From Escherichia coli (lineage in GTDB: Bacteria > Pseudomonadota > Gammaproteobacteria > Enterobacterales > Enterobacteriaceae): 64,000 nucleotides of DNA. Location of the stretch: assembly GCF_024298765.1 (NCBI RefSeq), contig NZ_CP101210.1; one strand, given 5' to 3'. Made by a program: the position numbers and the translations under genes. The notes beneath the pieces were generated by a model. The model was not told the DNA's origin and did not search any database. It saw only the letters and a program-made list of their open reading frames with translations. Numbering within the stretch: the stretch's first letter is position 1; each line of letters opens with the position of its first letter. Below are positions 1 to 48,180 of the stretch, piece after piece.

Positions 1-1
1 G

Positions 2-214
2 GTCAGCGACAGTGCCAATCCTGTTCATCATTATGGTCATGTGCAGGGAGGCTACAGTGTGCCACTGATTATTACCGCCAGTGACATAACGTCTCATCAG
101 CCCGTCAGTAGAAAAATCAGTGCCCGTCATTTCGCAGGTATTTTTCAGTGGATGAACGGTATTTGTACTGAAAATATACCGCCATTCAATCCGCTGACAG
201 ACGAAGATAATTAA
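2..214 (+). CDS. hypothetical protein, 3' fragment; frame open from window start, stop TAA at 212-214 directly abutting IS5
   Basis: Hand translation of frame 2 gives 70 sense codons then TAA; no family recognised; could be chance. Confidence 0.25.
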   Translation, partial: VSDSANPVHHYGHVQGGYSVPLIITASDITSHQPVSRKISARHFAGIFQWMNGICTENIPPFNPLTDEDN

Positions 215-1409
<1,195 letters not shown>

Positions 1410-2823
1410 CTAGTGGTTAAAGTGGCAGCACTGATGACTTAAGCGATATTGTCTTTGTATACCAGATGAATATCTGCTCCTCGCTCATAGCAGACTTTTG
1501 CATAGGTTCTTTTCCTAAAATAGCATGACATTTGTTTCAAAATTAGCCTGTAAGTCAAGAAAATACTTGGAGAATAATAATCTAGGCATTGGTAGCAACG
1601 ATAAATATCTACATAACCGATATTATCGAGTTACTAAATTGATGTGTTCCGGTAGATGAACAAAATGGTAGATCCTTCTAGAAACAAATAGAGTGTGGAT
1701 GAGGTAACCTGACTCAGCCAATTTATTGAGTCCGTTGAGCATCTGATCGGTTAATCTCTGAGAAAGAGTTTTCAGACAGATTCATTTTCTAGAATTATTT
1801 TTACTCATCAAACAAGGATGATTTTAATTTAGGTTTATTACTATAATTATATTTATTCTTTATATATTCTTTATTCACTCCCTTTTTCATACAATCTCTA
1901 TTGTTATTTACTTCCTGTCTTCACTCACTCTCAATCTTTACACATTCCATTAGTATTACTCTTGTTATCGTATTCACTCCATCCCTCAATCATAACTACT
2001 GTAACTCATATGATGTTCAGGTAAGTTATTCTCTACTACGCTATTGTTGATATTCATCTATTCTCATCTTCAGTAAAACAGTAATTGATTCTAATTTATC
2101 CATTATGAACCGTATTTGCTTAACAATGATTGTTTATCTGAAGTGTTTTAACTATTCTGGTGAACATCAATTTCTCTGTCATTACTGATTAACTGAATGC
2201 TTACTCTTTAATAAGGTATCCATTATTCTGTAACGATTAGCCGAGCAGGGTAAATAACAGAATTAATAGAGTGAATTTCTGATTGTGTTTGTTCGTTCCT
2301 GATTATCTTGTATTTTAAACAAAATGAAAATTATCCATCCATGGTATGTTTCATTCTGGTACCGTGTACCCGTTAACGTTCATATCTTGAACATGAGTTG
2401 TTTTTAACAGATAAAATGAGTGCGTGTAAGTTTATTGGGTTACAGGTATCGTGTTGGCCTTGTACACGGTTTTTTAGAACCATTGAGAGCAAGTTTGTAA
2501 TTTATGATGGTGATTAGTCGTAATATGTTTCTTGAACTTCTGATCGTGGGTTTTTATCGCATATTTTGCAGTATTTCGTGATGTTTATTGATTCTGTATT
2601 TTATTCACTCCTCGTTTATCTCATCTCTTTAGCTAATACCATCAGATAATCCATTTATTTCTGCACAACGCTACGTGTCGTTAATAACCGACGTATCCAT
2701 TCTGTTACAGCATGCCTGATAAATACCGTCTGTAAGTTATTACCGTTTTAGATCTGATTATGAGCGAAAGCATTAATTCGTTTACAGCACTTAAAACGTC
2801 ATTAACTTTCAGGAGTCATCAGC

Positions 2824-3390
2824 ATGCCTAAATCTTACACACCAAACTGGTTTTTTACCGCTTTACTTGACAATCACATCAATCAGTTGGTCGCACGCTA
2901 TTCCCGCCTGCGGGCCTTACGCATGGATTTCTTCTACAGGAAAGATACGCCTGATTTCTTACAACCTGATCATCGCTGGCTTGAATTGCAGTTGCGTATG
3001 CTGCTGGAGCAGGTGGAACAATTTGAAAATATCGTTGGTTTCTTCTGGGTGATTGAATGGACGGCTGATCATGGTTTTCATGCGCATGCGGTTTTCTGGC
3101 TCGATCGTCAGAGGGTTAAAAAAATATATCCCTTTGCGGAGCGGATTACGGAATGCTGGCAGTCTATTACGCATAACAGCGGTTCGGCACACCGCTGTAC
3201 ATATCAGCCGCATTATACATACAACATCAACATTCCCGTGCGTCATAACGATCCCGGGAGCATCGATAATATTCGCGGTGTCCTGCATTATCTGGCGAAA
3301 GAAGAGCAAAAAGACGGACTGTGCGCATACGGTTGCAGTGAAGTTCCTGAACGACCTGCTGCAGGGCGTCCTCGTAAGCCTCACTTCTGA
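2824..3390 (+). CDS. island/prophage-associated hypothetical protein, possibly inovirus Gp2-like (YfjJ/YagK-type) family
   Basis: 188-aa ORF after a long AT-rich leader; family guess from gene context next to alpA and motif GFHAHAVFWLD; not verified. Confidence 0.4.
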   Translation: MPKSYTPNWFFTALLDNHINQLVARYSRLRALRMDFFYRKDTPDFLQPDHRWLELQLRMLLEQVEQFENIVGFFWVIEWTADHGFHAHAVFWLDRQRVKKIYPFAERITECWQSITHNSGSAHRCTYQPHYTYNINIPVRHNDPGSIDNIRGVLHYLAKEEQKDGLCAYGCSEVPERPAAGRPRKPHF

Positions 3391-3617
3391 AGCTTAAATC
3401 CTGAGCTTCCTGTCCTGGAAACATTCCGTCGGTAAAACCTTACCGCCTTGCTTAATGATGTGAACTGAAGTCAACGGAGATCATTCACTCTGAACCACAT
3501 CCGGTGTTCTGTCCCTTGTCGGTGACCTGATCTTCCCGTTCTGCCCCGGTTCTTCACTTATTCCATCAACCCCATCCGCAAACCATAACACGTCAGCTTA
3601 TTCACGGGCAGGACGCA

Positions 3618-4208
3618 TTGTGGGCTGCGCATAACGGAGCATATCTTATGAATGCTATCCCTTATTTCGACTATAGCCTGGCCCCCTTCTGGCCATCTTA
3701 TCAGAACAAAGTCATCGGCGTCCTTGAGCGTGCGCTGCGTGAGCAGTCCGGCTCACGGATACGGCGGATCCTGCTTCGTCTGCCGTGTGAATATGACAAT
3801 ACCTTCAACAGCAGAACGACCTGGTTTGGTATGGATTTTATCGAAACCGTCAGTGCGCTGATGAATGCAACACCCGGACGTGACCTTTGCTGGCTCCTGA
3901 CCCGTCATCCTGAAAAACCGGAATACCATGTGGTGCTGTGCGTCAGACAGGAGTATTTCGACGGCCCCGAACTGGATCGGTTGATTCTGGATGCCTGGAG
4001 TAACGTGCTGGGTTTCGCGTCACCAGGTGAAGCAAAGCCGTACCAGAAGCAGATCACCCGGGATGTGGTACTGGATCGCCGGTCACCGGACTGCGAAGCC
4101 CTGTTTAAGGACCTTATCTGGGCGTTCAGTGATTTCGCCCGCGATCGCCGTGGAGTGCGCGATCCGGAAGCCCGTTGCCTCGCCGGTAATCCCGGTTGGC
4201 AGTGCTGA
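3618..4208 (+). CDS. hypothetical protein (island-associated)
   Basis: 196-aa ORF in same orientation as neighbours; no family recognised. Confidence 0.35.
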   Translation: MWAAHNGAYLMNAIPYFDYSLAPFWPSYQNKVIGVLERALREQSGSRIRRILLRLPCEYDNTFNSRTTWFGMDFIETVSALMNATPGRDLCWLLTRHPEKPEYHVVLCVRQEYFDGPELDRLILDAWSNVLGFASPGEAKPYQKQITRDVVLDRRSPDCEALFKDLIWAFSDFARDRRGVRDPEARCLAGNPGWQC

Positions 4209-4276
4209 AAGCAGCATTCCATCCCATACCTCGTATTACCCCATTCTTCATCAATCTCACAGAGGATATTCTGACC

Positions 4277-4507
4277 ATGTTGACCACAATAAGCCACGAC
4301 AGCGTGTTGCTGCGTGCCGACGATCCCCTGATCGACATGAACTACATCACCAGTTTCACCGGCATGACCGATAAATGGTTTTACAGGCTGATCAGTGAAG
4401 GTCATTTCCCTAAACCCATCAAACTGGGGCGCAGCAGCCGCTGGTACAAAAGTGAAGTAGAGCAGTGGATGCAGCAGCGAATTGAGGAATCACGAGGAGC
4501 AGCATGA
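4277..4507 (+). CDS. alpA: AlpA-family phage transcriptional regulator (MerR-like HTH)
   Basis: Internal Met of ORF 4196-4507 gives ~76 aa MLTTISHDSVLL...FTGMTDKWFYRLISEGHFPKPIKLGRSSRWYKSEVEQWMQQR, typical AlpA pattern. Confidence 0.65.
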   Translation: MLTTISHDSVLLRADDPLIDMNYITSFTGMTDKWFYRLISEGHFPKPIKLGRSSRWYKSEVEQWMQQRIEESRGAA

Positions 4508-4617
4508 AACGAGTTGTGATGCCGGTACGCTGGCAATGTGCAAAATGCCGGCGCTGGTATTGCGGAAATCAGCTCTGTCCCTGGTGCTGGCGACATTACC
4601 GTTCATTTTCCTGCTGA
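4504..4617 (+). CDS. small Cys-rich (zinc-ribbon-like) protein, 37 aa, ATGA-coupled to alpA stop
   Basis: Hand translation MKRVVMPVRWQCAKCRRWYCGNQLCPWCWRHYRSFSC; CxxC and CxxC-like pairs; below ORF-track size cutoff. Confidence 0.3.
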   Translation: MKRVVMPVRWQCAKCRRWYCGNQLCPWCWRHYRSFSC

Positions 4618-4732
4618 CCCTCTCCGGTCAGCCAGCAGGTTGTAGCTCTTTCCTGACTGATTCGTTATTCCTTTCGTCCCGTCAGTCACTGGTGTTTGTA
4701 TCGTACTGTGCTGGTGTTGATGTGCGTTTTCC

Positions 4733-5275
4733 GTGTGTCTGCACCGGCTTAACAAAATTCACAGGGGTAAAATAGTGCAAATAACCGAAGCCTTACTTTC
4801 AGCGCCGGGGGAAATCCGGCGTTTTGTTCAGCAGGGGGTGGACCACTGGCCGCGTCTGCTGGCATTTCACTTCACGCTCCATTCGGCAGAAGGAAACATC
4901 AACGGGCAACAGATTCATGCATTCTGTACTTCCTTTTATGAACGTATTACTGAGCGTAATCACACGACCAGTCCATCATCGCCGGTGGTATTACGCTGGT
5001 TGCGGGAACAACATGGAGGAGCAACAATGCGATGCCTGTTGCTGCTCAGCCAGACGAGTATTTGTCACCCGCGAGCCAGTGTCACAGTTGATGAACAATG
5101 TTCGCAAGTGGTGGATTTACTGCAGCAGACCTGGCGGGGGATGGATACGGGCGGACAATGTCGGGTGGAAAGGTGTTTTCGGGTTACCCGGCCTGATACA
5201 TCAGAGCAATACGTTGCGTTAAAAACGGCTGTTCAGTCTCTGATGCCACTGGTTATTGCAACAATCATCCGGTGA
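4733..5275 (+). CDS. hypothetical protein
   Basis: 180-aa ORF; no family recognised; start uncertain. Confidence 0.3.
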   Translation: MCLHRLNKIHRGKIVQITEALLSAPGEIRRFVQQGVDHWPRLLAFHFTLHSAEGNINGQQIHAFCTSFYERITERNHTTSPSSPVVLRWLREQHGGATMRCLLLLSQTSICHPRASVTVDEQCSQVVDLLQQTWRGMDTGGQCRVERCFRVTRPDTSEQYVALKTAVQSLMPLVIATIIR

Positions 5276-5514
5276 TGACCGGGAGAAATATCGACTCTTC
5301 CGTTAATTTTTACAGACTGATAAAGTTTTGTCTGCTGAATCTTTATACGGAATTCTTTTCAGTATGCGTACACGAATTGATTATCTGGCGGATAAATACT
5401 GTTTTACAGAACTGAATGAATCGCCCCGTCTTCGCCGGCAATGGCAGGATGTCCTGGATGAGTGCCGGCAGACAGAGGCAGGGCCGGAAGAACGGTTGCG
5501 TATTGCACTGTTGA

Positions 5515-7206
5515 ATGTGGATTACGTCAGCAATGCTGAATCTGGATAAGCCTGGTGCCTGCGATCCCAGTGTGGAACGTCTGTTTGAAGGCTTTGCCTT
5601 CCTGATGGGACGTTTGCGTGAAAAGCTGGATGATGACCTGCCGGAGCTCACCGAAGGTCTGGTGAGTCTGCTGTGGCCGCACTATATGCGGACTATCCCG
5701 TCGCTGGCCATCGTTGAGTTCTCGCCTGACTGGCGTAGTCTGCGTCAGGCCGAAATACTGGCTGAAGGCTTTTCCGTTCTGTCCCGTCCTGTCGGGCCGC
5801 ATAAAACCGCCTGCCAGTACCGGGCGACCCGCGATGTGTTGCTACAACCGCTGCACCTTGCAGATGCCCGTCTCCATACTGAATCCGATGGCCGCTCTGC
5901 TATCCGTCTGCGCTTCGAATGCCCTGAAAAAGTGGACTGGAGTAAAGCCGGGATCGACAAAGTCGCCATTTTTCTTAACGCAGAGGCGCCGGTAAGTGCT
6001 GCGCTACATCTGGCAATGACCCGGCGTGTACATGCCATGTATGCGCGTCATGCCGGGACATATACCGGACGTCGTCAGTTTGACGGCTGGTGCAGACCCA
6101 TGGGCTTTGACGACAATGACTGCCTGTGGAAGAAAGCTGATACAGCCTTCAGTGGTTACCAGTTGCTGCTGGAGTATTTCAGCTTCCGTCCGAAGTTTAT
6201 GTTTGTTGAACTGCGCGGCCTCGACACCATTGGGCTCACTGCGGCCAGTACCTGGTTTGAAATCGACATTGTGCTCAGTGAAGCCTGGTCATCCGGTTTG
6301 CCTTTTGAGACAGAAAACTTCCGCCTGCACTGTGCGCCGGTTATCAATCTCTTTACCCTGGAAGCCGACCCGCTGATCCTTAACCCGCTGGATAACGAGT
6401 ACCTGCTCAGGCCGCTGCGTCTTCAGGATGGTCACACCGAAATTTACAGCGTCGATAACATTCACGGCTCGGTGAAGAACGGCAGACACCCTTATGTCCC
6501 GTTCACCAGCTTCCGGCACCGGGGCGGTATGATGCGCCACGATGCTCCTGAACGTTATTACCACACCCGTGTGAAACGGGGACCCTCCGGCCTGTATGAC
6601 ACATGGTTAGTTCTCGGGGGGCGTTCGTTCGAGCTGGAGCAGTTGTCCGATAAACCGGAGTCCCTCTCGATGCGAATCACCGCGACCAACGGGCAGCTTC
6701 CGCGCAGGGCGCTGGAAAGTACGCTCCTGGACAGGGTGGTCAAAACCGGCAAAGTCCCCGTCAGAGTCCTGAACCTGACCGCACCGACGATGCCACTGTA
6801 TCCCCCGGCAAATGACCGGTTTCACTGGCGGGTGATGAGTCACCTCGGATCAAACTTTCTCAGCATGATGGACAATCCGGAGGTGCTGCGGGGGACGCTG
6901 GCGCTCTATGACTGGACCGACGATGAAATGAACCGCCGCCGGCTTGAAGCCATCGTTGCTGTGAAGCACACCCTGATCCGCCGTTTTGAAAAGGGCTTTA
7001 TGCTCCGTGGCGTGGACATTGAGGTCACGCTGAATATGGATAATTTTGCCGGCGAGGGCGATGTGAATCTCTTCGGGGAGATGCTGCACCGTTTCTTTGC
7101 GCTCTATGCTGATGTTCACCTTTTCAACCAGCTCACACTGGTACTGCAACCCACAGGGAAACGACTGAGATGGAAAGAGAATCACAGCCAGCACGTACCG
7201 GGCTGA
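5515..7206 (+). CDS. tssF: type VI secretion baseplate subunit TssF (ImpG/VasA family), apparently lacking ~25-30 N-terminal residues
   Basis: Motif ERLFEGFAFLMGRLREKLDDDLPELTEGLVSLLWPHYMRTIPSLAIVEF is the conserved TssF N-proximal signature but sits at residue ~17; in-frame stop just upstream of 5515. Confidence 0.75.
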   Translation: MWITSAMLNLDKPGACDPSVERLFEGFAFLMGRLREKLDDDLPELTEGLVSLLWPHYMRTIPSLAIVEFSPDWRSLRQAEILAEGFSVLSRPVGPHKTACQYRATRDVLLQPLHLADARLHTESDGRSAIRLRFECPEKVDWSKAGIDKVAIFLNAEAPVSAALHLAMTRRVHAMYARHAGTYTGRRQFDGWCRPMGFDDNDCLWKKADTAFSGYQLLLEYFSFRPKFMFVELRGLDTIGLTAASTWFEIDIVLSEAWSSGLPFETENFRLHCAPVINLFTLEADPLILNPLDNEYLLRPLRLQDGHTEIYSVDNIHGSVKNGRHPYVPFTSFRHRGGMMRHDAPERYYHTRVKRGPSGLYDTWLVLGGRSFELEQLSDKPESLSMRITATNGQLPRRALESTLLDRVVKTGKVPVRVLNLTAPTMPLYPPANDRFHWRVMSHLGSNFLSMMDNPEVLRGTLALYDWTDDEMNRRRLEAIVAVKHTLIRRFEKGFMLRGVDIEVTLNMDNFAGEGDVNLFGEMLHRFFALYADVHLFNQLTLVLQPTGKRLRWKENHSQHVPG

Positions 7207-8015
7207 CGCAGGCCCTGGCCCTTAACAACGATATCTGGCGGGCCAGTTTTTATCGTTTCTGCCAGCTGCTGGAGCTGGAAAATCCGGACGGGCCAAAACT
7301 GGGCACGACCAGCCATCCGGGCGATGACCCGGTGCGATTCAGGCCCTGGCCCGGGATGGGATTCCCGGTCAGCACCCTGAAAGCGGTGGAGATCGACGAA
7401 GACCGTCCGACATTACCCCCAACGATCCGCACGACATTTCTCGGAATGTATGGGGTGGACTCACCTCTGCCGACGTCCTGGCTGGATGATATTGCGCAGC
7501 GCCGTGAAGGACATGAGGCGCTCACCTCATTTCTGGATATTTTCAGCCACCGCATCACCACCCAGTACTACCGGATCTGGCGAAAATATGCGTATCCGGC
7601 CACTTTCGAGGAGGGGGGGCGCGATGCCACATCGCAGTGTCTGCTGGGACTGGTCGGACTCGGTATACCCGGCACCGCTGAACAGGTGGCAACGCCGGTT
7701 TCCCGTTTCCTGGCCTTACTGGGTGCCATGCGATTACCCACCCGCAATGCTGAAGGCATCCGGGCTCTGGTGAGTCTGCTGGCACCGGATACCCGCGCAC
7801 TTATCACCGAACCCGATCCGGTTAAGGTCCATATCGATAACCGCAGTGGGCTGGGTGCCGGAAACCGCATCCGTCTTTCGCAGCGGGCCACGCTGGGTAA
7901 AACGGCAGGGGAAGCATGCAGCCGGCTCCTGATGACACTGGAAACAGCGGATCCGGACGAGGCGGAAGGCTGGTTGCCCACAGATAACCGGAGCAGGATT
8001 TACCGCCTTTCTTAG
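7170..8015 (+). pseudogene. tssG: type VI secretion baseplate subunit TssG (ImpH family), 3'-truncated at IS66 junction near 7970
   Basis: Overlaps tssF stop as in T6SS clusters; 281 codons versus ~330-350 expected; last ~15 codons are IS66-derived sequence read out of frame. Confidence 0.65.
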
Positions 8016-14083: not shown

Positions 14084-15043
14084 TTAACAATATTTTTTTC
14101 TTAAATTCTTCAGAGTCTGAACAGAAACCTCAACACAACGATTTTGGGCTGCCATTAGTTCCTGTAATACAGAGTCAGATATTTTGGCAGGGTAGTAATA
14201 ATCAAGTGGCTTTATTTTCAGGTGTTCAAATGGTGCCTCTTTTACGGAGAATGCCCCTTCCAGAGAATATACGCCGCCAGTACCCTTTGGACGGGCAAAA
14301 GGTGAGGCATATGGGAAACATGTTTCGATGTTTATTCTGGTTAAAGAGGACTCTTTAACCAGAGTTTTAAAGCAGGTATCAATATCAATGCTTCCTTCTC
14401 CGACAGGAACACCACAGACAACCAGGTCTTCGCCGTTGCGTGTGACAATATGATCCTTGAAATGCGTGCTGTAAGCATAAGGAGCCAGTTTACGAACTGT
14501 TTCTACTGGTTCTTCCCATGCCATCATTCCATTACCTATATCACAGTGTGCTCCCACCCACTCAGAATTAACAGATTTGATAACTTCGATTATCTCGTCG
14601 GCAGTTTCATCTTCATGGTTTTCTATTGCCAGTTTAATTTTCTTTCTACTGAGTAAGGATGTCAGTGATTTTAACTGTTCTACTATTTCCGGATATTTCA
14701 GAGGGTTATATTCTCCTCTCCTGAACATATAAGTTCGGATAACTTCTGCTCCAAGTGCAGATGCAATTTCCACTGCTCTGGTGATAGCTTCACAGGAAGT
14801 GAATCGGGTATCTATCTCACAATAAAGACCATGAGAATCAATGGATTTTCTGACTTTTGACAGATATTCAGGAGATATACTGTTCAGGACACCAAATTCC
14901 GGATGCAGACCAACATCCGGAATGATATTAATTTCGACCCCATCCAGCCCCAGTTCACTGGTTTTATCAATGAAGTCGAAAATATCCATCATTCCCTGCT
15001 GAAAGAACAGATGATATGACTCAGTCTCAAGGCCTAGTTTCAT
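14084..15043 (-). CDS. sugar phosphate isomerase/epimerase (xylose isomerase-like TIM barrel)
   Basis: Start chosen at MKLGLETESYHL with GGAGG 7 nt upstream; family assigned from overall resemblance to sugar-phosphate isomerases, not verified. Confidence 0.6.
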   Translation of the reverse strand: MKLGLETESYHLFFQQGMMDIFDFIDKTSELGLDGVEINIIPDVGLHPEFGVLNSISPEYLSKVRKSIDSHGLYCEIDTRFTSCEAITRAVEIASALGAEVIRTYMFRRGEYNPLKYPEIVEQLKSLTSLLSRKKIKLAIENHEDETADEIIEVIKSVNSEWVGAHCDIGNGMMAWEEPVETVRKLAPYAYSTHFKDHIVTRNGEDLVVCGVPVGEGSIDIDTCFKTLVKESSLTRINIETCFPYASPFARPKGTGGVYSLEGAFSVKEAPFEHLKIKPLDYYYPAKISDSVLQELMAAQNRCVEVSVQTLKNLRKKYC

Positions 15044-15228
15044 GGCGAACCTCCATAGTATTTGAGACTGATTGTAGTTTTTTATACATTTGTAAAATGT
15101 GATCAAAGTAGAATAATTTCTCACTTAGTGAATAAATTTACTACCTGGTGTTATTTTGAGCCACTTTGGTGGACTCTGTTCTGCATCTGGTATAGCATTC
15201 AGATGTACTTTGTTCATGAGGTTATTAT

Positions 15229-15891
15229 ATGAAATCTATTGTTAATCATGAGTTTACTGAGGATGACAGGCAGCTTTTGCTCTCATATATTCCATTCATC
15301 GACAGTCTTGGTCAGTTCTTGGGTGAGTATTGCGAGATCGTCCTGCATAGTTTTGAGGACTTGCATCATTCCGTTATTCATATCGTTAACGGGCATGTGA
15401 CGGGGAGAGAGAAGGGGGCACCTGTAACAAATATAGCACTGGAAAAACTGGCAGAATTTAACTCAACAAACGATATGTGGGATGTCTATTTCAACCATAA
15501 AGGCGTTCGCCCTTTTAAATCATCGTCATCACTTATTCTGAATAAAAATAAAGAACCAGTAGGTATGATATGTATGAACTTTGCTCTGGATATGCCTCTT
15601 AATGCATTTATTGAAAACTTTGCAAAATCGTCAAACTGTAAAAACGAAAATTTCACTCAGGATATCAATAATCTTGTGCTTAGTCACCTTGAACCTGTTA
15701 AAAATATGGTTTACTCCAATAAGAATATACCAAGTAAAAACAAGAACTTTGAAATAGTAAAAGAACTTAATTCTATTGGGTTGTTTAAGTTCCCGGTTAC
15801 AACAAAAATTGTTTCATCGGTTCTTGGTATCAGTGCTAACACTATTTATAAACATCTCAGGGTATTAAATAATAAGGGGAAGGAGAATTAA
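15229..15891 (+). CDS. YheO-like transcriptional regulator (PAS-like N-domain plus C-terminal HTH)
   Basis: Motif CEIVLHSFEDLHHSVIHIVNGHVTGREKGAPVTNIALEKL matches YheO family; divergent from the isomerase operon. Confidence 0.7.
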   Translation: MKSIVNHEFTEDDRQLLLSYIPFIDSLGQFLGEYCEIVLHSFEDLHHSVIHIVNGHVTGREKGAPVTNIALEKLAEFNSTNDMWDVYFNHKGVRPFKSSSSLILNKNKEPVGMICMNFALDMPLNAFIENFAKSSNCKNENFTQDINNLVLSHLEPVKNMVYSNKNIPSKNKNFEIVKELNSIGLFKFPVTTKIVSSVLGISANTIYKHLRVLNNKGKEN

Positions 15892-16009
15892 GGTGTCTGT
15901 ATTCTGAACTTATAAGTAAGTTGTTTGTCTGAAGCGTATTGATATTTATTTTTCGGTTAGAGCAACTTTCTAGGGAAACAGATCGCGTATCCAGTTTGCC
16001 TGTCATTCC

Positions 16010-16290
16010 TAGATATGTTCAATGACGTAACGCAGCCATTTTTCTGGAGCCATATTGTTCAGACGGCATGTACCAATCCGCAGGTACAGCATCGCCGCAT
16101 CCTCAAGTAATGCCGGTAATTTGGGGCGTAATTCTGTTGCGCTTTTACTGAACACAATGCCGTATTCAGTAAGAAGTCCAAGAACATGATCTATCAGTTG
16201 TGTCCTTCCATCGAGATCAACCGATGCATTTTCAAAAAAGCCTGGACGTTCTGTAGGTCCAGACTTTTTATTGGTACCAGTCGTATAGTT
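16010..16290 (-). pseudogene. IS66-family transposase C-terminal remnant (no start codon)
   Basis: Hand translation ...AMLYLRIGTCRLNNMAPEKWLRYVIEHI* fits IS66 TnpC C-terminal pattern (A.L..LI.TC.LN...P..WL..V). Confidence 0.35.
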
Positions 16291-16823
16291 CTATATTGAT
16301 AGGTTTCAGCTATTGCTGTGCGTTGTTATAATCATTTTTCTGACGCCATTGATAAGATTTAACATGTTGTGCTGGATGCAATATTACATCATAGTTGAGT
16401 TCCCTTATTTCCTGTGGGCAGTGATGGGATGTCCCGCAAGCCTTCATCGCAACGGTCATTTTGGCTGTTATACCAGCCAGTTAAGCAGTTGGTTGTGAGA
16501 AAGTTTGATCTTTCCCGCGTGATTGCCACGAGCATTGATACTGAAAAGATAAAAGTTCGTTTTAGCCTGAGCGATGTCGGTAATTTTCTGTTCAATCATG
16601 GCCTTTCTCTTACTTTTGTGGTTAAAATTTATTCGCTATGGCGCAATTGAAAGCGGTCGTGAAGGTGGGGGAAGACTATCTCATCACTTACCATATTTCC
16701 GACATATTCTCACAACAAAATACCACGTAACTATTGATGAATATTGTTCTCTCCTGAGCAGCGTTTATGCTTTAATTGCTAAATCGATTTAATTAGTTTA
16801 GCAATTAGTATATTGGAGCCTTT

Positions 16824-46743: not shown

Positions 46744-47928
46744 TTAACTCTCCTGGATGGAAAGTGAATCAATGTAGTCAGCGTACCATTGCATCATTTC
46801 ACGGCGACCATCGAGATACAGGGCATGATTATAGGTACCCCTGATGGAATTTTTATCCACATGAGCTAACTGCATTTCAATCCAGGCAGAATTAAAGCCC
46901 TGTTCGTGCAGAATGGTACTCATGGTGTGACGAAAACCATGACCGGTTGCCCTGCCATCGTAACCGATACGTTTGAGCACCATATTGATGCTGGCTTCGC
47001 TCATTGGCTTGTTGATATCACAACGTCCCGGGAAAACCAGCCGGTATTGTCCGGAGAAAGTTTTGAGCTGCAGCAGAATGTCAGTGGCCTGTCGTGACAG
47101 TGGTACGACATGTTTACGTCGCATTTTCATGCGGCTTTCAGGGATTGTCCACAGGGCATTATCAAAATCAATTTCTGACCATTCAGCGGACCGTAGTTCA
47201 ATCGTTCTGAGGCCTGTCAGAAGCAGCAGATTTGTCGCCATGCGGGTAACAGGACTGCCATGATATTCAGCGAGCTTCCGGAGAAAAACAGGGAGCTCAT
47301 CTGCTCTCAGGTGGGGGAAATGTGCAGCTTTTGGCGCCGCCAGCGTACTGGTCAGTTCAGATGCCGGATTGACAGTGGCTCGTCCGGTGGCGATGGCATA
47401 ACGAAAAATCTGATTACAGTATTGACGCACCTTACGAAGTTTTTCCAGCGAGCCACGTTTTTCTATGCGGCGCAGAATTTCCAGCATTTCCAGCGGGAGG
47501 ATATCAGTAACGCTTCGTTTGCCCAGATACGGGAAAATATCTTTATCCAGAGCCTCCAGTACGCTTCTGGCGTAACTTTCAGACCATGACAAAGATTTAT
47601 GCTGATGCCATTCCGTAGCAAGGGCATGGAACGTATTGGTGGCAGAGATTTTCTGAGTGAGTTTTTCCTTTCGCTTCTTTTCGCCCGGGTCGCCACCTTC
47701 GGAGATAATTTTTCGGGCATCGTCGCGTTTGATTCTGGCTTCAGCAAGGGAGACGTCGGGATAGACGCCGAGGGCCAGTTTTTTCTCTTTTCCTGCTATC
47801 CGGTATTTAAGCCGCCAGTAGCGGGCACCCGTGGTTTTTACCAGCAGATATAAACCACGTTCGTCAGAGAGTTTATAGTCTTTTTCTTTAGGTCTGGCTG
47901 TTTCGACCTGTCTGGCTGTAAGTGCCAT
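46744..47928 (-). CDS. int: P4-type tyrosine integrase
   Basis: Start MALTARQVETARPKEKDYKLSDERGLYLLV (AGGAG RBS); C-terminal catalytic region HGFRHT...Y; adjacent to tRNA-Phe. Confidence 0.85.
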   Translation of the reverse strand: MALTARQVETARPKEKDYKLSDERGLYLLVKTTGARYWRLKYRIAGKEKKLALGVYPDVSLAEARIKRDDARKIISEGGDPGEKKRKEKLTQKISATNTFHALATEWHQHKSLSWSESYARSVLEALDKDIFPYLGKRSVTDILPLEMLEILRRIEKRGSLEKLRKVRQYCNQIFRYAIATGRATVNPASELTSTLAAPKAAHFPHLRADELPVFLRKLAEYHGSPVTRMATNLLLLTGLRTIELRSAEWSEIDFDNALWTIPESRMKMRRKHVVPLSRQATDILLQLKTFSGQYRLVFPGRCDINKPMSEASINMVLKRIGYDGRATGHGFRHTMSTILHEQGFNSAWIEMQLAHVDKNSIRGTYNHALYLDGRREMMQWYADYIDSLSIQES

Positions 47929-48104
47929 ATGGGGGCTCCTGAAACTGACTGAACACAATGAGCCCCCACCGGTGCCCCCAATGAACGCTTGATTGAGAGA
48001 GAGTTCAGTAGAGTTCGGTGGAGTTCAGGATGTTCAGATTGCTTGTAACGATGTGATTATACTTGAGTTTCGTGGAGTTCGGGAGATGAATCTGGAAGTG
48101 AAAG

Positions 48105-48180
48105 TGGTGCCCGGACTCGGAATCGAACCAAGGACACGGGGATTTTCAATCCCCTGCTCTACCGACTGAGCTATCCGGGC
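48105..48180 (-). tRNA. pheV: tRNA-Phe (anticodon GAA)
   Basis: Reverse complement reads GCCCGGATAGCTCAGTCGGTAGAGCAGGGGATTGAAAATCCCCGTGTCCTTGGTTCGATTCCGAGTCCGGGCACCA; pheV rather than pheU inferred from neighbouring yqgA-speC. Confidence 0.95.

What the first reader, a model, noticed from the sequence alone, without database searches (positions are those of the whole stretch)
1414..2823. 1.4-kb ORF-free, AT-rich, strongly G-depleted tract upstream of the prophage-like gene cluster
No ORF of 60 aa or more on either strand. The top strand between ~1850 and 2100 is almost purely C/T/A, with repeated ATTCACTCC-like and CTCA(A)TC motifs. This strand-asymmetric composition is unusual for coding-dense enterobacterial DNA and is compatible with a non-coding RNA locus, a replication/partition-like repeat region, or an H-NS-bound regulatory leader.
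Basis: seen in the sequence. Interest (0 to 1): 0.4.

Follow-up and report, generated by a model that had tools for sequence, protein, structure and literature searches.

The report
Long regulatory leader of island operon
The gene-free stretch is the unannotated upstream control region of a small operon in an E. coli genomic island: a near-invariant promoter-like box, then a G-poor C/T-rich tract, then about 800 bases of AT-rich spacer; it is cut on its left by an IS5 insertion and is not an RNA gene or a dead gene.

Summary
The ORF-free, AT-rich tract is real. G depletion is confined to about 1800-2080 (G 5-7%); the whole tract has G 16%, C 17%. Its left edge (1414) is an IS5 junction.

Homologous sequence lies upstream of a 188-aa YagK/YfjJ-type gene in 1572 of 5426 complete E. 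coli genomes and is never annotated.

From 68 distinct versions:
- A near-invariant 30-nt box (1822-1851) with a -10-like TATAAT.
- A C/T-rich tract (1852-1985), 67-197 nt long, always 2-6% G, almost unfoldable as RNA.
- About 700 nt of AT-rich leader (1986-2689) that varies as fast as or faster than synonymous sites.
- A strongly conserved 134 nt (2690-2823) whose predicted hairpin pairs the Shine-Dalgarno and start codon.

There is no conserved ORF, Rfam match, conserved fold or terminator.

The box, followed by a C>G leader, recurs upstream of orthologues in Citrobacter, Enterobacter, Salmonella, Mixta and Serratia.

Best reading: promoter/operator plus a long untranslated leader, with the G-poor tract a likely Rho-loading site and the AT-rich body a likely H-NS target. 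These steps are inferred.

Rival: the box is the nick or binding site of the adjacent protein, which has an HUH Rep-like fold and motifs.

Moderately interesting; a new member of a known kind.

The parts
215..1409 (-). IS5 (1195 bp; transposase ORF 361-1341). It sets the artificial left edge of the finding. Its flanks are TTAA (211-214) and CTAG (1410-1413), so this is not a simple insertion.
   Evidence: Sequence read directly: ends GGAAGGTGCGAATAAG and CTTGTTCGCACCTTCC.
1410..1795 (.). AT-rich spacer that depends on context. It is shared only by loci with the same left neighbour. In IS-free genomes it continues 167 nt to a divergent TIR-domain gene.
   Evidence: Only 139 of 1572 genomes cover 80% or more of the query. 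Conservation here is 0.17-0.36 pairwise. L001 annotation.
1796..1821 (+). Semi-conserved stretch just upstream of the box (TTATTTTTACNCATCAAACATGGATAATTTT in most versions). A -35 element would lie here, but none is conserved.
1822..1851 (+). Near-invariant box TTTTAATTTAGGTTTATTACTAT[A/T]ATTATA. The core AATTTAGGTTTATTACTAT is at 1826-1844. A -10-like TATAAT (TATTAT in 23 of 58 versions) is at 1842-1847.
   Evidence: In 58 versions, apart from a few aberrant sequences such as IS-truncated L012, only 1834 and 1845 vary appreciably. Single copy in the window. Conserved upstream of orthologues of 39-60% protein identity in other genera, with T, A, T, n, A, T kept.
1852..1985 (+). G-depleted C/T-rich tract of variable length. 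It contains CACTCCCTTTTT (1876-1887), which is conserved across genera, and TCACTC-type motifs.
   Evidence: The tract is 67-197 nt long in 43 unique versions, each with G 2-6% and C 24-37%. Modules are gained and lost, and a 9-nt CTTCTCCAC unit is present in 3 or 6 copies in some. RNA fold is -1.2 kcal/mol over 166 nt. Only 69 of about 160,000 100-nt test windows elsewhere are as G-poor and C-rich.
1986..2689 (+). AT-rich body of the leader. It has no ORF, conserved fold or terminator, and its length is kept while its sequence drifts. A boxA-like ACTCTTTAATAA lies at 2203-2214.
   Evidence: Nucleotide diversity is 0.11-0.18 for 1985-2560 and 0.080 for 2561-2689, against 0.088 at fourfold sites of the gene..
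2690..2823 (+). Strongly conserved proximal leader. The predicted hairpin 2710-2827 pairs the Shine-Dalgarno AGGAG (2811-2815) and the start codon (2824-2826).
   Evidence: Diversity 0.019 (22 of the 134 columns were fixed by my search pattern). MFE -33.2 kcal/mol, z -2.84. Consensus -27.9 kcal/mol in 25 variants, with no compensatory change and no excess over shuffles.
2760..2831 (+). Possible 23-codon upstream ORF (MSESINSFTALKTSLTFRSHQHA). Its stop overlaps the yagK-like start (ATGCCTAA).
   Evidence: Read as an intact 23-codon ORF in 18 of the 27 variants. It is clearly destroyed in two: start lost in L102 and premature stop in L084. Two read through to 28 codons, and five differ inside the 12-nt string my script used to find the start, so they were not scored. 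There is no Shine-Dalgarno sequence and no clear excess of synonymous change.
2824..3390 (+). yagK/yfjJ-type gene (188 aa) with an HUH Rep-like fold and motifs (HAH at residues 86-88, YLAK).
3648..4208 (+). Second gene of the module (186 aa, no family match).
4277..4507 (+). AlpA-type helix-turn-helix gene, the third gene of the module.
   Evidence: PF05930 E 2.4e-10. Weak match to the excisionase domain TIGR01764. Annotation in L001.

Best explanation
Window 1796-2823 is the cis-regulatory region and long untranslated 5' leader of a three-gene island module: a yagK-like HUH gene, an unknown gene and an alpA-like gene.

Shown:
- It is non-coding.
- It travels with that module whatever lies to its left.
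- It starts with a near-invariant box containing a -10-like hexamer.
- The box is followed by a tract whose G-poor, C/T-rich composition is kept while its sequence and length turn over.
- It ends in a strongly conserved segment that can fold to occlude the ribosome-binding site and start codon.

Inferred:
- Transcription starts a few bases after the box, so the G-poor tract is the 5' end of the RNA.
- Being C-rich, G-poor and unstructured, that RNA is a loading (rut-like) site for the Rho terminator. Rho then has about 800 nt of untranslated RNA in which to stop RNA polymerase before the operon.
- H-NS probably coats the 67% A+T DNA.
- RNA that gets through is translated poorly because of the hairpin.
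- The net effect is a module that is off by default and opened by a factor acting at the box.

I give about 0.75 to the general statement (cis-regulatory leader of this operon) and about 0.4 to the Rho step specifically.
For: Linkage and prevalence:
- The homologous block precedes the same gene in 1572 of 5426 E. coli genomes and is never annotated.
- Left neighbours differ: a TIR gene, an H-NS-like gene, a sugar kinase, DUF3987 or IS elements.

Non-coding and unstructured:
- No shared ORF of 35 aa or more.
- No Rfam match.
- Consensus fold about 0 kcal/mol on both strands.
- No terminator on either strand.

Box:
- Near-invariant in 58 versions.
- Kept upstream of orthologues of 39-60% identity in five or more genera, with the T, A, T, n, A, T pattern expected of a sigma-70 -10 element.

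Tract:
- G 2-6% and C 24-37% in all 43 versions despite lengths of 67-197 nt.
- Leaders of the distant orthologues are also C>G: C 22-41%, G 5-16%.
- RNA fold -1.2 kcal/mol over 166 nt.
- This composition is nearly unique in about 800 kb of related DNA.

Constraint profile:
- Diversity is 0.019 in 2690-2823 and 0.11-0.18 in the body, against 0.088 at fourfold sites.
- The hairpin is kept in 25 variants, and the third-codon-like changes in stem 4 are all G-C to G-U, which pair only on the + strand RNA.

Established knowledge: Rho prefers C-rich, G-poor, unstructured, untranslated RNA, and H-NS prefers AT-rich acquired DNA.
Against: - No transcript, start site, Rho dependence or H-NS binding was measured, and I found no paper on this region.
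- No -35 element is conserved, and the promoter scans rank the box only moderately: not listed, score 6.7.
- The hairpin has no compensatory changes and does not exceed shuffled controls.
- Most of the leader evolves as fast as or faster than synonymous sites, so it may be a tolerated spacer rather than a functional part.
- The H-NS consensus is not enriched.
- The Budvicia leader is long but not C>G.
- In relatives the box lies inside an inverted repeat followed by a T run. That fits a terminator or an HUH hairpin as well as it fits an operator.
Confidence: 0.55

Rival explanations
1. The box, with or without the TCACTC-type repeats after it, is the DNA site on which the adjacent HUH Rep-like protein binds and nicks. 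It would be an origin of rolling-circle replication or transfer for the excised island, which may at the same time serve as the gene's autoregulated promoter.
For: - The neighbouring protein has a conserved H-x-H motif and a Y-x-x-K tyrosine motif.
- It matches PF11726 and, weakly, REP_ORF2-G2P.
- It is under purifying selection: diversity 0.016 at codon positions 1 and 2 against 0.088 at fourfold sites.
- The box is conserved across protein divergence of 40-60%. That is more typical of nick sites than of promoters.
- In Citrobacter, Enterobacter and Mixta the box sits in the AT-rich centre of a GC-rich 7-bp inverted repeat (DNA fold -7.5 kcal/mol, z -2.3). Serratia has both arms changed.
- The box shares AATTTAGG with the terminal motif of rudiviruses (PMC7156643), whose Rep is the best structural match.
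Against: - In E. coli, including this window, there is no inverted repeat or hairpin around the box (-0.7 kcal/mol, z +0.9).
- The repeats are irregular in number and spacing.
- DnaA-like sites are only marginally above shuffles (10 against 4.4 +/- 2.4, because of TTATTCACT). IHF, P4-iteron and CRESS nonamer motifs are at chance level.
- A DNA site does not explain why the whole leader after the box is G-poor on the sense strand in unrelated sequences.
- The variable position in the box is the one that varies in -10 hexamers.
- The AATTTAGG match has roughly a 1 in 100 chance by my own estimate.
- K-12 YfjJ and YagK lack any such box.
- No exact copy of the box exists in 2.9 million viral contigs.
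Confidence: 0.2
2. The tract is AT-rich spacer DNA with no specific function. It persists because H-NS silences it and nothing selects against it. The G-poor part is an unstable low-complexity stretch, and only the last 130-260 nt are the real promoter and leader.
For: - Diversity of 1985-2560 equals or exceeds that of synonymous sites.
- IS1, IS3, IS5 and IS481 family elements have inserted into the region in different genomes.
- Orthologues in other genera manage with 145-230 nt between box and gene.
- No binding-site consensus is enriched.
Against: - The box, about 1 kb from the gene, is far less variable than neutral sites and is conserved between genera.
- The G-poor composition is kept in all 43 versions of the tract.
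- The box-to-gene length is kept at about 930-1010 nt across alleles despite bacterial deletion bias.
- No promoter-like site was found in 2560-2823.
Confidence: 0.15
3. The region encodes a separate small or long non-coding RNA, or a small protein, that is independent of the downstream operon.
For: - The region is unannotated and conserved in about 29% of E. coli genomes.
- A ProQ/FinO-family gene lies at the far end of the module in many loci.
- Short ORFs exist: 49 aa at 1901-2050 and the 23-codon uORF.
Against: - No Rfam hit at E <= 1.
- No conserved secondary structure on either strand for 1815-2650.
- No terminator-like site.
- No ORF of 35 aa or more is shared among versions. The 49-aa ORF starts with TTG and lies in the indel-rich tract.
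- The uORF is broken in at least 2 of 27 variants.
Confidence: 0.07

Closest known systems
Rho-dependent attenuating 5' leaders (for example Salmonella mgtA and corA, the E. coli rho leader, the rut site after tnaC)
   Same: Long untranslated leader. It has a C-rich, G-poor, unstructured segment near the 5' end and no intrinsic terminator. The start codon can be occluded.
   Different: - Rho dependence is not shown here.
- The leader is three to four times longer than those examples.
- Its G-poor segment is hypervariable in length.
- No ligand-, peptide- or sRNA-sensing element was identified.
Xenogeneic silencing of AT-rich acquired DNA by H-NS, acting together with Rho
   Same: - 67% A+T inside a genomic island.
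- IS elements accumulate in the region, and IS5-type elements sit at the same CTAG site in other genomes.
- H-NS-like or truncated H-NS genes lie next to the region in some islands.
   Different: H-NS binding was not measured and the high-affinity motif is not enriched. Silencing alone does not explain the invariant box or the one-strand G depletion.
Double-strand origins of HUH Rep proteins (geminivirus and circovirus stem-loop plus iterons, pMV158 nic and bind loci, parvovirus Rep-binding element plus nick site)
   Same: A conserved short sequence lies next to direct repeats, immediately upstream of a gene for an HUH-fold protein. In some genera the sequence lies in the AT-rich centre of a GC-rich inverted repeat.
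   Different: There is no hairpin in E. coli, the repeats are irregular, and nicking has not been shown. No replication or transfer of such islands by this protein is known.
Loading sites of Q-type and P. aeruginosa AlpA antiterminators, a regulator site between -35 and -10 (PMC9371919)
   Same: The conserved block lies where such a site would be, at about -28 to -15 relative to the -10-like hexamer. An AlpA-named gene is always linked.
   Different: The linked protein is a 76-aa helix-turn-helix protein that is much shorter than P. aeruginosa AlpA, whose DNA-contacting residues are numbered 126-142 (PMC9371919), so it cannot hold that protein's N-terminal ring segment. No pause element or terminator was identified. 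This is an analogy only.

Membership tests
Rho-dependent attenuator / rut site | C-rich, G-poor stretch of about 70-80 nt or more on the RNA strand | tested here: met
   In 1850-1949 there are 2 G and 26 C. G is 2-6% and C 24-37% in all 43 versions.
Rho-dependent attenuator / rut site | Little secondary structure in that RNA | tested here: met
   -1.2 kcal/mol over 166 nt. Consensus fold is about 0.
Rho-dependent attenuator / rut site | The RNA is transcribed and not translated | tested here: inconclusive
   No conserved ORF, and a promoter-like box lies just upstream. No transcript data were available.
Rho-dependent attenuator / rut site | Termination depends on Rho (bicyclomycin or rho mutants) | not testable with these tools
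   Needs an experiment.
Sigma-70 promoter | -10 hexamer with T at -12, A at -11 and T at -7 | tested here: met
   TATAAT at 1842-1847. T, A (90%), T, n, A, T are kept in 11 taxa and in 58 E. coli versions.
Sigma-70 promoter | -35 hexamer at 16-18 bp | tested here: not met
   The best candidate is ATGATT at 18 bp. It is not conserved.
Sigma-70 promoter | Mapped transcription start | not testable with these tools
   No data were found in the literature searches.
Structured non-coding RNA (Rfam family or new) | Match to a covariance model | tested here: not met
   0 matches at E <= 1 in window 1-6000.
Structured non-coding RNA (Rfam family or new) | Conserved secondary structure with covariation | tested here: not met
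   Consensus fold z-scores lie between -1.6 and +1.6 with energies near 0 for 1815-2650. The only stable fold is 2710-2827, which has no compensatory pairs.
HUH Rep origin (nick site plus binding repeats) | Adjacent gene for a protein with an HUH motif and a catalytic tyrosine | tested here: met
   HAH and YLAK are conserved. Rep-like fold.
HUH Rep origin (nick site plus binding repeats) | Conserved nick sequence presented in a hairpin or inverted repeat | tested here: inconclusive
   The box is conserved between genera. An inverted repeat is present in the Citrobacter/Enterobacter/Mixta group and in Serratia, but absent in E. coli.
HUH Rep origin (nick site plus binding repeats) | Regular direct repeats (iterons) next to the nick site | tested here: inconclusive
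   TCACTC occurs about 2.5 times per tract with irregular spacing and number. No tandem array.
HUH Rep origin (nick site plus binding repeats) | Site-specific cleavage by the protein | not testable with these tools
   Needs a biochemical assay.
H-NS-silenced region | A+T well above the genome average over hundreds of bases | tested here: met
   GC is 0.29-0.35 across 1500-2700, against 0.47 for the window.
H-NS-silenced region | High-affinity nucleation motif TCGATAAATT | tested here: not met
   6 sites with up to 2 mismatches, against 3.7 +/- 2.0 in shuffles.
Pseudogene / decayed coding region | Homologues with an intact ORF, or shared reading-frame remnants | tested here: not met
   No ORF of 35 aa or more is shared among 11 diverged versions. 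Indels are not multiples of three.
Theta-type origin or partition site | DnaA boxes, IHF sites, phased iterons | tested here: not met
   DnaA-like sites are 10 against 4.4 +/- 2.4, because of the TTATTCACT motif. There are no IHF sites. P4 type I iterons are 2 against 0.9.

The most novel reading that the evidence does not exclude
The invariant box, with the repeats after it, is the cognate nick or binding site of the YagK/YfjJ-type HUH protein. On this reading, many tRNA-linked E. coli genomic islands and their relatives in other Enterobacterales carry a so far unrecognised rolling-circle replication or mobilisation module, whose expression is gated by a Rho- and H-NS-sensitive 1-kb leader.
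Probability: 0.2. Interest if true: 0.7.

Novelty: new member of a known kind. Interest (0 to 1): 0.42.

Why it matters
The module is present in about 29% of complete E. coli genomes and sits in pathogenicity-type islands, yet neither its proteins nor its 1-kb upstream region has a described function.

A conserved promoter-like box, a composition-constrained G-poor leader and a start-codon-occluding hairpin give concrete handles for asking how such islands keep a Rep-like gene and an AlpA-type (possibly excision-related) gene silent, and what switches them on.

If the box proves to be the substrate of the HUH protein, the way these islands replicate or move would need to be reconsidered. If not, this is one more example of layered silencing of acquired DNA. 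That would be useful for annotation but not surprising.

Tried and rejected
- Rfam scan of window 1-6000 at E <= 1: nothing.
- tRNA/tmRNA scan: only tRNA-Phe, at 48105.
- Tandem repeats: one 11-nt unit with 2.3 copies.
- Direct and inverted repeats: only short, mostly two-copy matches.
- Promoter and terminator consensus scan: 3 promoter-like sites against 6.9 expected, none conserved, and no terminator.
- My own promoter matrix: no strong conserved site.
- Conserved small ORFs: none of 35 aa or more.
- Sliding consensus RNA folds on both strands with column shuffles: no signal before 2600.
- Covariation in the proximal hairpin: none.
- H-NS, IHF, DnaA, Fis, Dam, P4 type I iteron and CRESS nonamer motifs: at chance level, or marginal in the case of DnaA.
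- The other 1.5-kb gap upstream of a second Gp2-family gene in L001: not homologous and not G-poor.
- K-12 yfjJ and yagK: short upstream gaps and no box.
- Homology between the E. coli and Budvicia long leaders: not significant (0.42 identity against 0.37 +/- 0.03 in shuffles).
- Exact box in viral contigs: none.
- A plasmid copy (H86): only an IS-truncated relic.
- Literature on YfjJ, YagK, inovirus Gp2, island sRNAs, H-NST and EARL islands, and AlpA antitermination: nothing on this region.
- The paper on SIRV1 Rep cleavage (PMC3019997) is not held, so the rudivirus nick site could not be compared.
- No complete genome in the collection has the window's own IS5 left junction.
Full report
**What is in the window**

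The finding (1414-2823) lies between an IS5 copy (215-1409, transposase 361-1341 on the minus strand) and a 188-aa gene at 2824-3390.
- No ORF of 60 aa or more exists on either strand. The longest is 49 aa with a TTG start.
- The tract is 33% G+C, the lowest of any kilobase in the window.
- G depletion is real but local. The whole tract has G 16.0% and C 17.2%. In 1850-2100 G is 6.8%, and 1834-1902 is the longest G-free run in 64 kb. From 2400 to 2600 the skew is reversed.
- ATTCACTCC occurs three times here and nowhere else in the window.
- There is no regular repeat array.

**The left edge is artificial**

The IS5 ends are flanked by TTAA and CTAG, not by a duplicated target. Window 1-214 has no match next to the tract in IS-free genomes. 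There the same sequence continues from the CTAG for 167 nt to the start of a divergent TIR-domain gene. IS5-like elements sit at the same CTAG in other genomes, and IS1, IS3 and IS481 family elements interrupt the region elsewhere.

**Distribution**

Megablast finds the tract in 1572 of 5426 complete E. coli genomes. Only 139 cover 80% or more of it. Most matches begin at about window 1843-1991 and run to 2821 at 80-90% identity, and no record annotates anything there.

In twelve annotated loci the block always precedes the same module: a YagK/YfjJ-type gene of 188 aa, a hypothetical gene of about 186 aa and an AlpA-type helix-turn-helix gene. Often a second YagK-like gene and a ProQ/FinO-family gene follow.

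The gene on the left differs between loci: a TIR gene, an H-NS-like gene, a sugar kinase or IS elements. In the largest classes from the metagenome set the order is a 243-aa Gp2-like gene, then a 534-541-aa ORF that I read by eye as DUF3987/YfjI-like (not searched against a family library), then about 560 nt, then the box.

**Anatomy from 68 distinct versions**

The versions come from the E. coli loci plus one metagenome scan with a 22-nt pattern.
1. A box, TTTTAATTTAGGTTTATTACTAT[A/T]ATTATA (1822-1851). In 58 versions only two positions vary appreciably, apart from a few aberrant sequences such as one truncated by an IS. It contains TATAAT or TATTAT at 1842-1847.
2. Directly after it, a C/T-rich tract (1852-1985).
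   - It ranges from 67 to 197 nt and is built of modules that come and go. In some versions a 9-nt unit CTTCTCCAC is present in 3 or 6 copies.
   - All 43 unique versions have G 2-6% and C 24-37%.
   - As RNA the window's copy folds at -1.2 kcal/mol over 166 nt.
   - In about 160,000 test windows of 100 nt from related DNA, only 69 outside this element are as G-poor and C-rich.
3. A body of about 700 nt (1986-2689) with small indels.
4. A proximal segment (2690-2823) that is almost invariant.

**Constraint**

The reference is nucleotide diversity of 0.088 at 53 fourfold sites of the yagK-like gene, against 0.016 at codon positions 1 and 2.

| Segment | Diversity |
|---|---|
| 2690-2823 (proximal segment) | 0.019 |
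| 2561-2689 | 0.080 |
| 1985-2560 (body) | 0.11-0.18 |
| 1851-1984 (tract) | 0.27 |

The box and the last 134 nt are under purifying selection. The body is not constrained in sequence, although its length is kept. The figure for 2690-2823 is lowered a little by my search pattern, which fixed 22 of its columns.

**What it is not**
- No ORF of 35 aa or more is shared by 11 diverged versions.
- There is no Rfam match at E <= 1.
- Consensus folding of 41 diverse versions gives about 0 kcal/mol on both strands from 1815 to 2650, no better than column shuffles.
- No terminator-like site exists on either strand.
- DnaA, IHF, Fis, H-NS, P4 iteron and CRESS nonamer consensus sites are not convincingly enriched.

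**The proximal hairpin**
- Window 2710-2827 folds at -33.2 kcal/mol (z -2.84). The fold pairs AGGAG (2811-2815) and the AUG.
- The consensus of 25 variants keeps it at -27.9 kcal/mol. All variation in stem 4 is G-C to G-U, which is compatible only with the + strand RNA.
- There is no compensatory change and no excess over shuffled controls. The fold is plausible but unproven.
- A 23-codon ORF (2760-2831) ends on the yagK-like start (ATGCCTAA). It is clearly destroyed in two of 27 variants and was not scored in five more, so its reality is uncertain.

**The neighbouring protein**
- It matches PF11726 and, below the cut-off, PF23343 REP_ORF2-G2P.
- An alignment with relatives down to 39% identity, and with K-12 YfjJ and YagK, keeps an H-x-H motif and a Y-x-x-K motif.
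- It is therefore an HUH-type nuclease by fold and motifs. Its substrate is unknown.

**Beyond E. coli**
- Orthologues of 39-60% identity in Citrobacter, Enterobacter, Salmonella diarizonae, Mixta, Serratia, a metagenomic lineage and an E. coli paralogue carry the box 145-230 nt before the start codon. In Budvicia it is 1031 nt before.
- The alignment consensus reads AATTTAGGTTAATTAATATAATTAA, with several positions varying between lineages. The box is usually followed by CACTCCCTTTTT, as at window 1876-1887.
- In alignment A3 the hexamer keeps T, A (90%), T, any base, A, T. That is the pattern of a sigma-70 -10 element. No -35 element is conserved, while the block AAT...GGTT..TT just upstream is.
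- The leaders after the box are C>G in all lineages but Budvicia: C 22-41%, G 5-16%.
- So the G-poor leader is a property of this gene family. E. coli has in addition about 800 nt of AT-rich sequence between tract and gene.
- In the Citrobacter/Enterobacter/Mixta group the box lies between GGGAGTG and CACTCCC (DNA fold -7.5 kcal/mol, z -2.3). Serratia has GGAGTAA and TTACTCT. E. coli has no such repeat.

**Interpretation**

The evidence best fits a promoter/operator (the box) driving a long untranslated leader. A conserved -10-like hexamer, a sense-strand composition constraint that survives complete sequence turnover, the absence of structure, ORFs and terminators, and a conserved structure that sequesters the ribosome-binding site all point to function at the level of the transcript.

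The only well-known bacterial factor that prefers C-rich, G-poor, unstructured, untranslated RNA is Rho (established knowledge). I therefore propose Rho loading on the tract and termination within the leader, reinforced by H-NS on the 67% A+T DNA and by the translational hairpin. None of these steps was measured.

The main rival is that the box is the site of the HUH protein. In its favour:
- The degree of conservation of the box between genera.
- The inverted repeat in some genera.
- A shared AATTTAGG with the rudivirus terminal motif (PMC7156643), whose Rep is the best structural match.

Against it:
- The lack of any hairpin in E. coli.
- The irregular repeats.
- The strand-wide G depletion.

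The two readings are not exclusive, since Rep proteins often bind their own promoters.

**Novelty and score**

I found no description of this region or of the box in Rfam, in genome annotations or in the papers searched. It is an undescribed but conceptually familiar element: a regulatory leader of an island operon. Interest is moderate (0.42). It would be higher if the HUH-site reading proved true.

Noticed in passing
window 211-214 and 1410-1413 (IS5 at 215-1409): The 4-bp flanks of IS5 differ (TTAA and CTAG), and window 1-214 is unrelated to the DNA that adjoins 1414 in IS-free genomes. An IS5-mediated deletion or rearrangement removed the TIR-gene side of the island. No complete genome in the collection has this junction, but IS5-like ISKpn26 sits at the same CTAG in others.
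   Followed up: partly
window 2760-2831: A 23-codon upstream ORF whose stop overlaps the yagK-like start (ATGCCTAA). It lies inside the hairpin that occludes the ribosome-binding site. This could be translational coupling, but the start is lost in one of 27 variants and a premature stop appears in another; five further variants were not scored.
   Followed up: partly
loci L007, L008, L026, L042, L114 against L053, L081, L104 (equivalent to window 1940-1985): A 9-nt unit CTTCTCCAC is present in 6 or 3 tandem copies in otherwise near-identical tracts. This is copy-number slippage inside the G-poor tract.
   Followed up: no
window 2203-2214: ACTCTTTAATAA resembles the boxA element of Nus-factor antitermination sites (by memory TGCTCTTTAACAA, about 10 of 12 over this stretch by my count). 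It lies in one of the best conserved stretches of the leader body.
   Followed up: no
L018 3825-3885 and the equivalent in L016, L020, L021, L128: In other genera the box is flanked by a 7-bp GC-rich inverted repeat (GGGAGTG and CACTCCC) followed by TTTTT. Serratia has both arms changed (GGAGTAA and TTACTCT). The repeat is absent in E. coli.
   Followed up: partly
window 3648-4208 and 4775-5275: The second and fourth genes of the module align weakly with the YagK-like protein but lack the H-x-H and tyrosine motifs. They may be degenerate paralogues. NCBI labels the fourth 'YagK/YfjJ domain-containing' in some genomes.
   Followed up: partly
window 5515-8015: tssF and tssG (type VI secretion baseplate) follow the module directly. 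In a related genome they are annotated as truncated pseudogenes next to IS66 fragments, while in another genome the same position holds defence-type genes (MAD1 helix-turn-helix, SNF2-related, Abi, AIPR). The right side of the module is a cargo-exchange point.
   Followed up: no
L005 2292-2507 and L009 2207-2422: A 71-aa truncated H-NS-like gene lies immediately upstream of the AT-rich leader in some islands. It could act on the same region.
   Followed up: no
window 14772-16433 and 28752-31416: Two further AT-rich stretches (1-kb GC down to 0.33-0.35). Near 15861 and 32471 the minus strand is also G-poor and C-rich over 100 nt. These were not examined.
   Followed up: no
window 46744-48180: tRNA-Phe (48105-48180, minus strand) with a 404-aa ORF next to it (46744-47958). 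By position it is probably the island integrase, though I did not search it against any family. The leader studied here lies about 45 kb from this probable attachment end.
   Followed up: no
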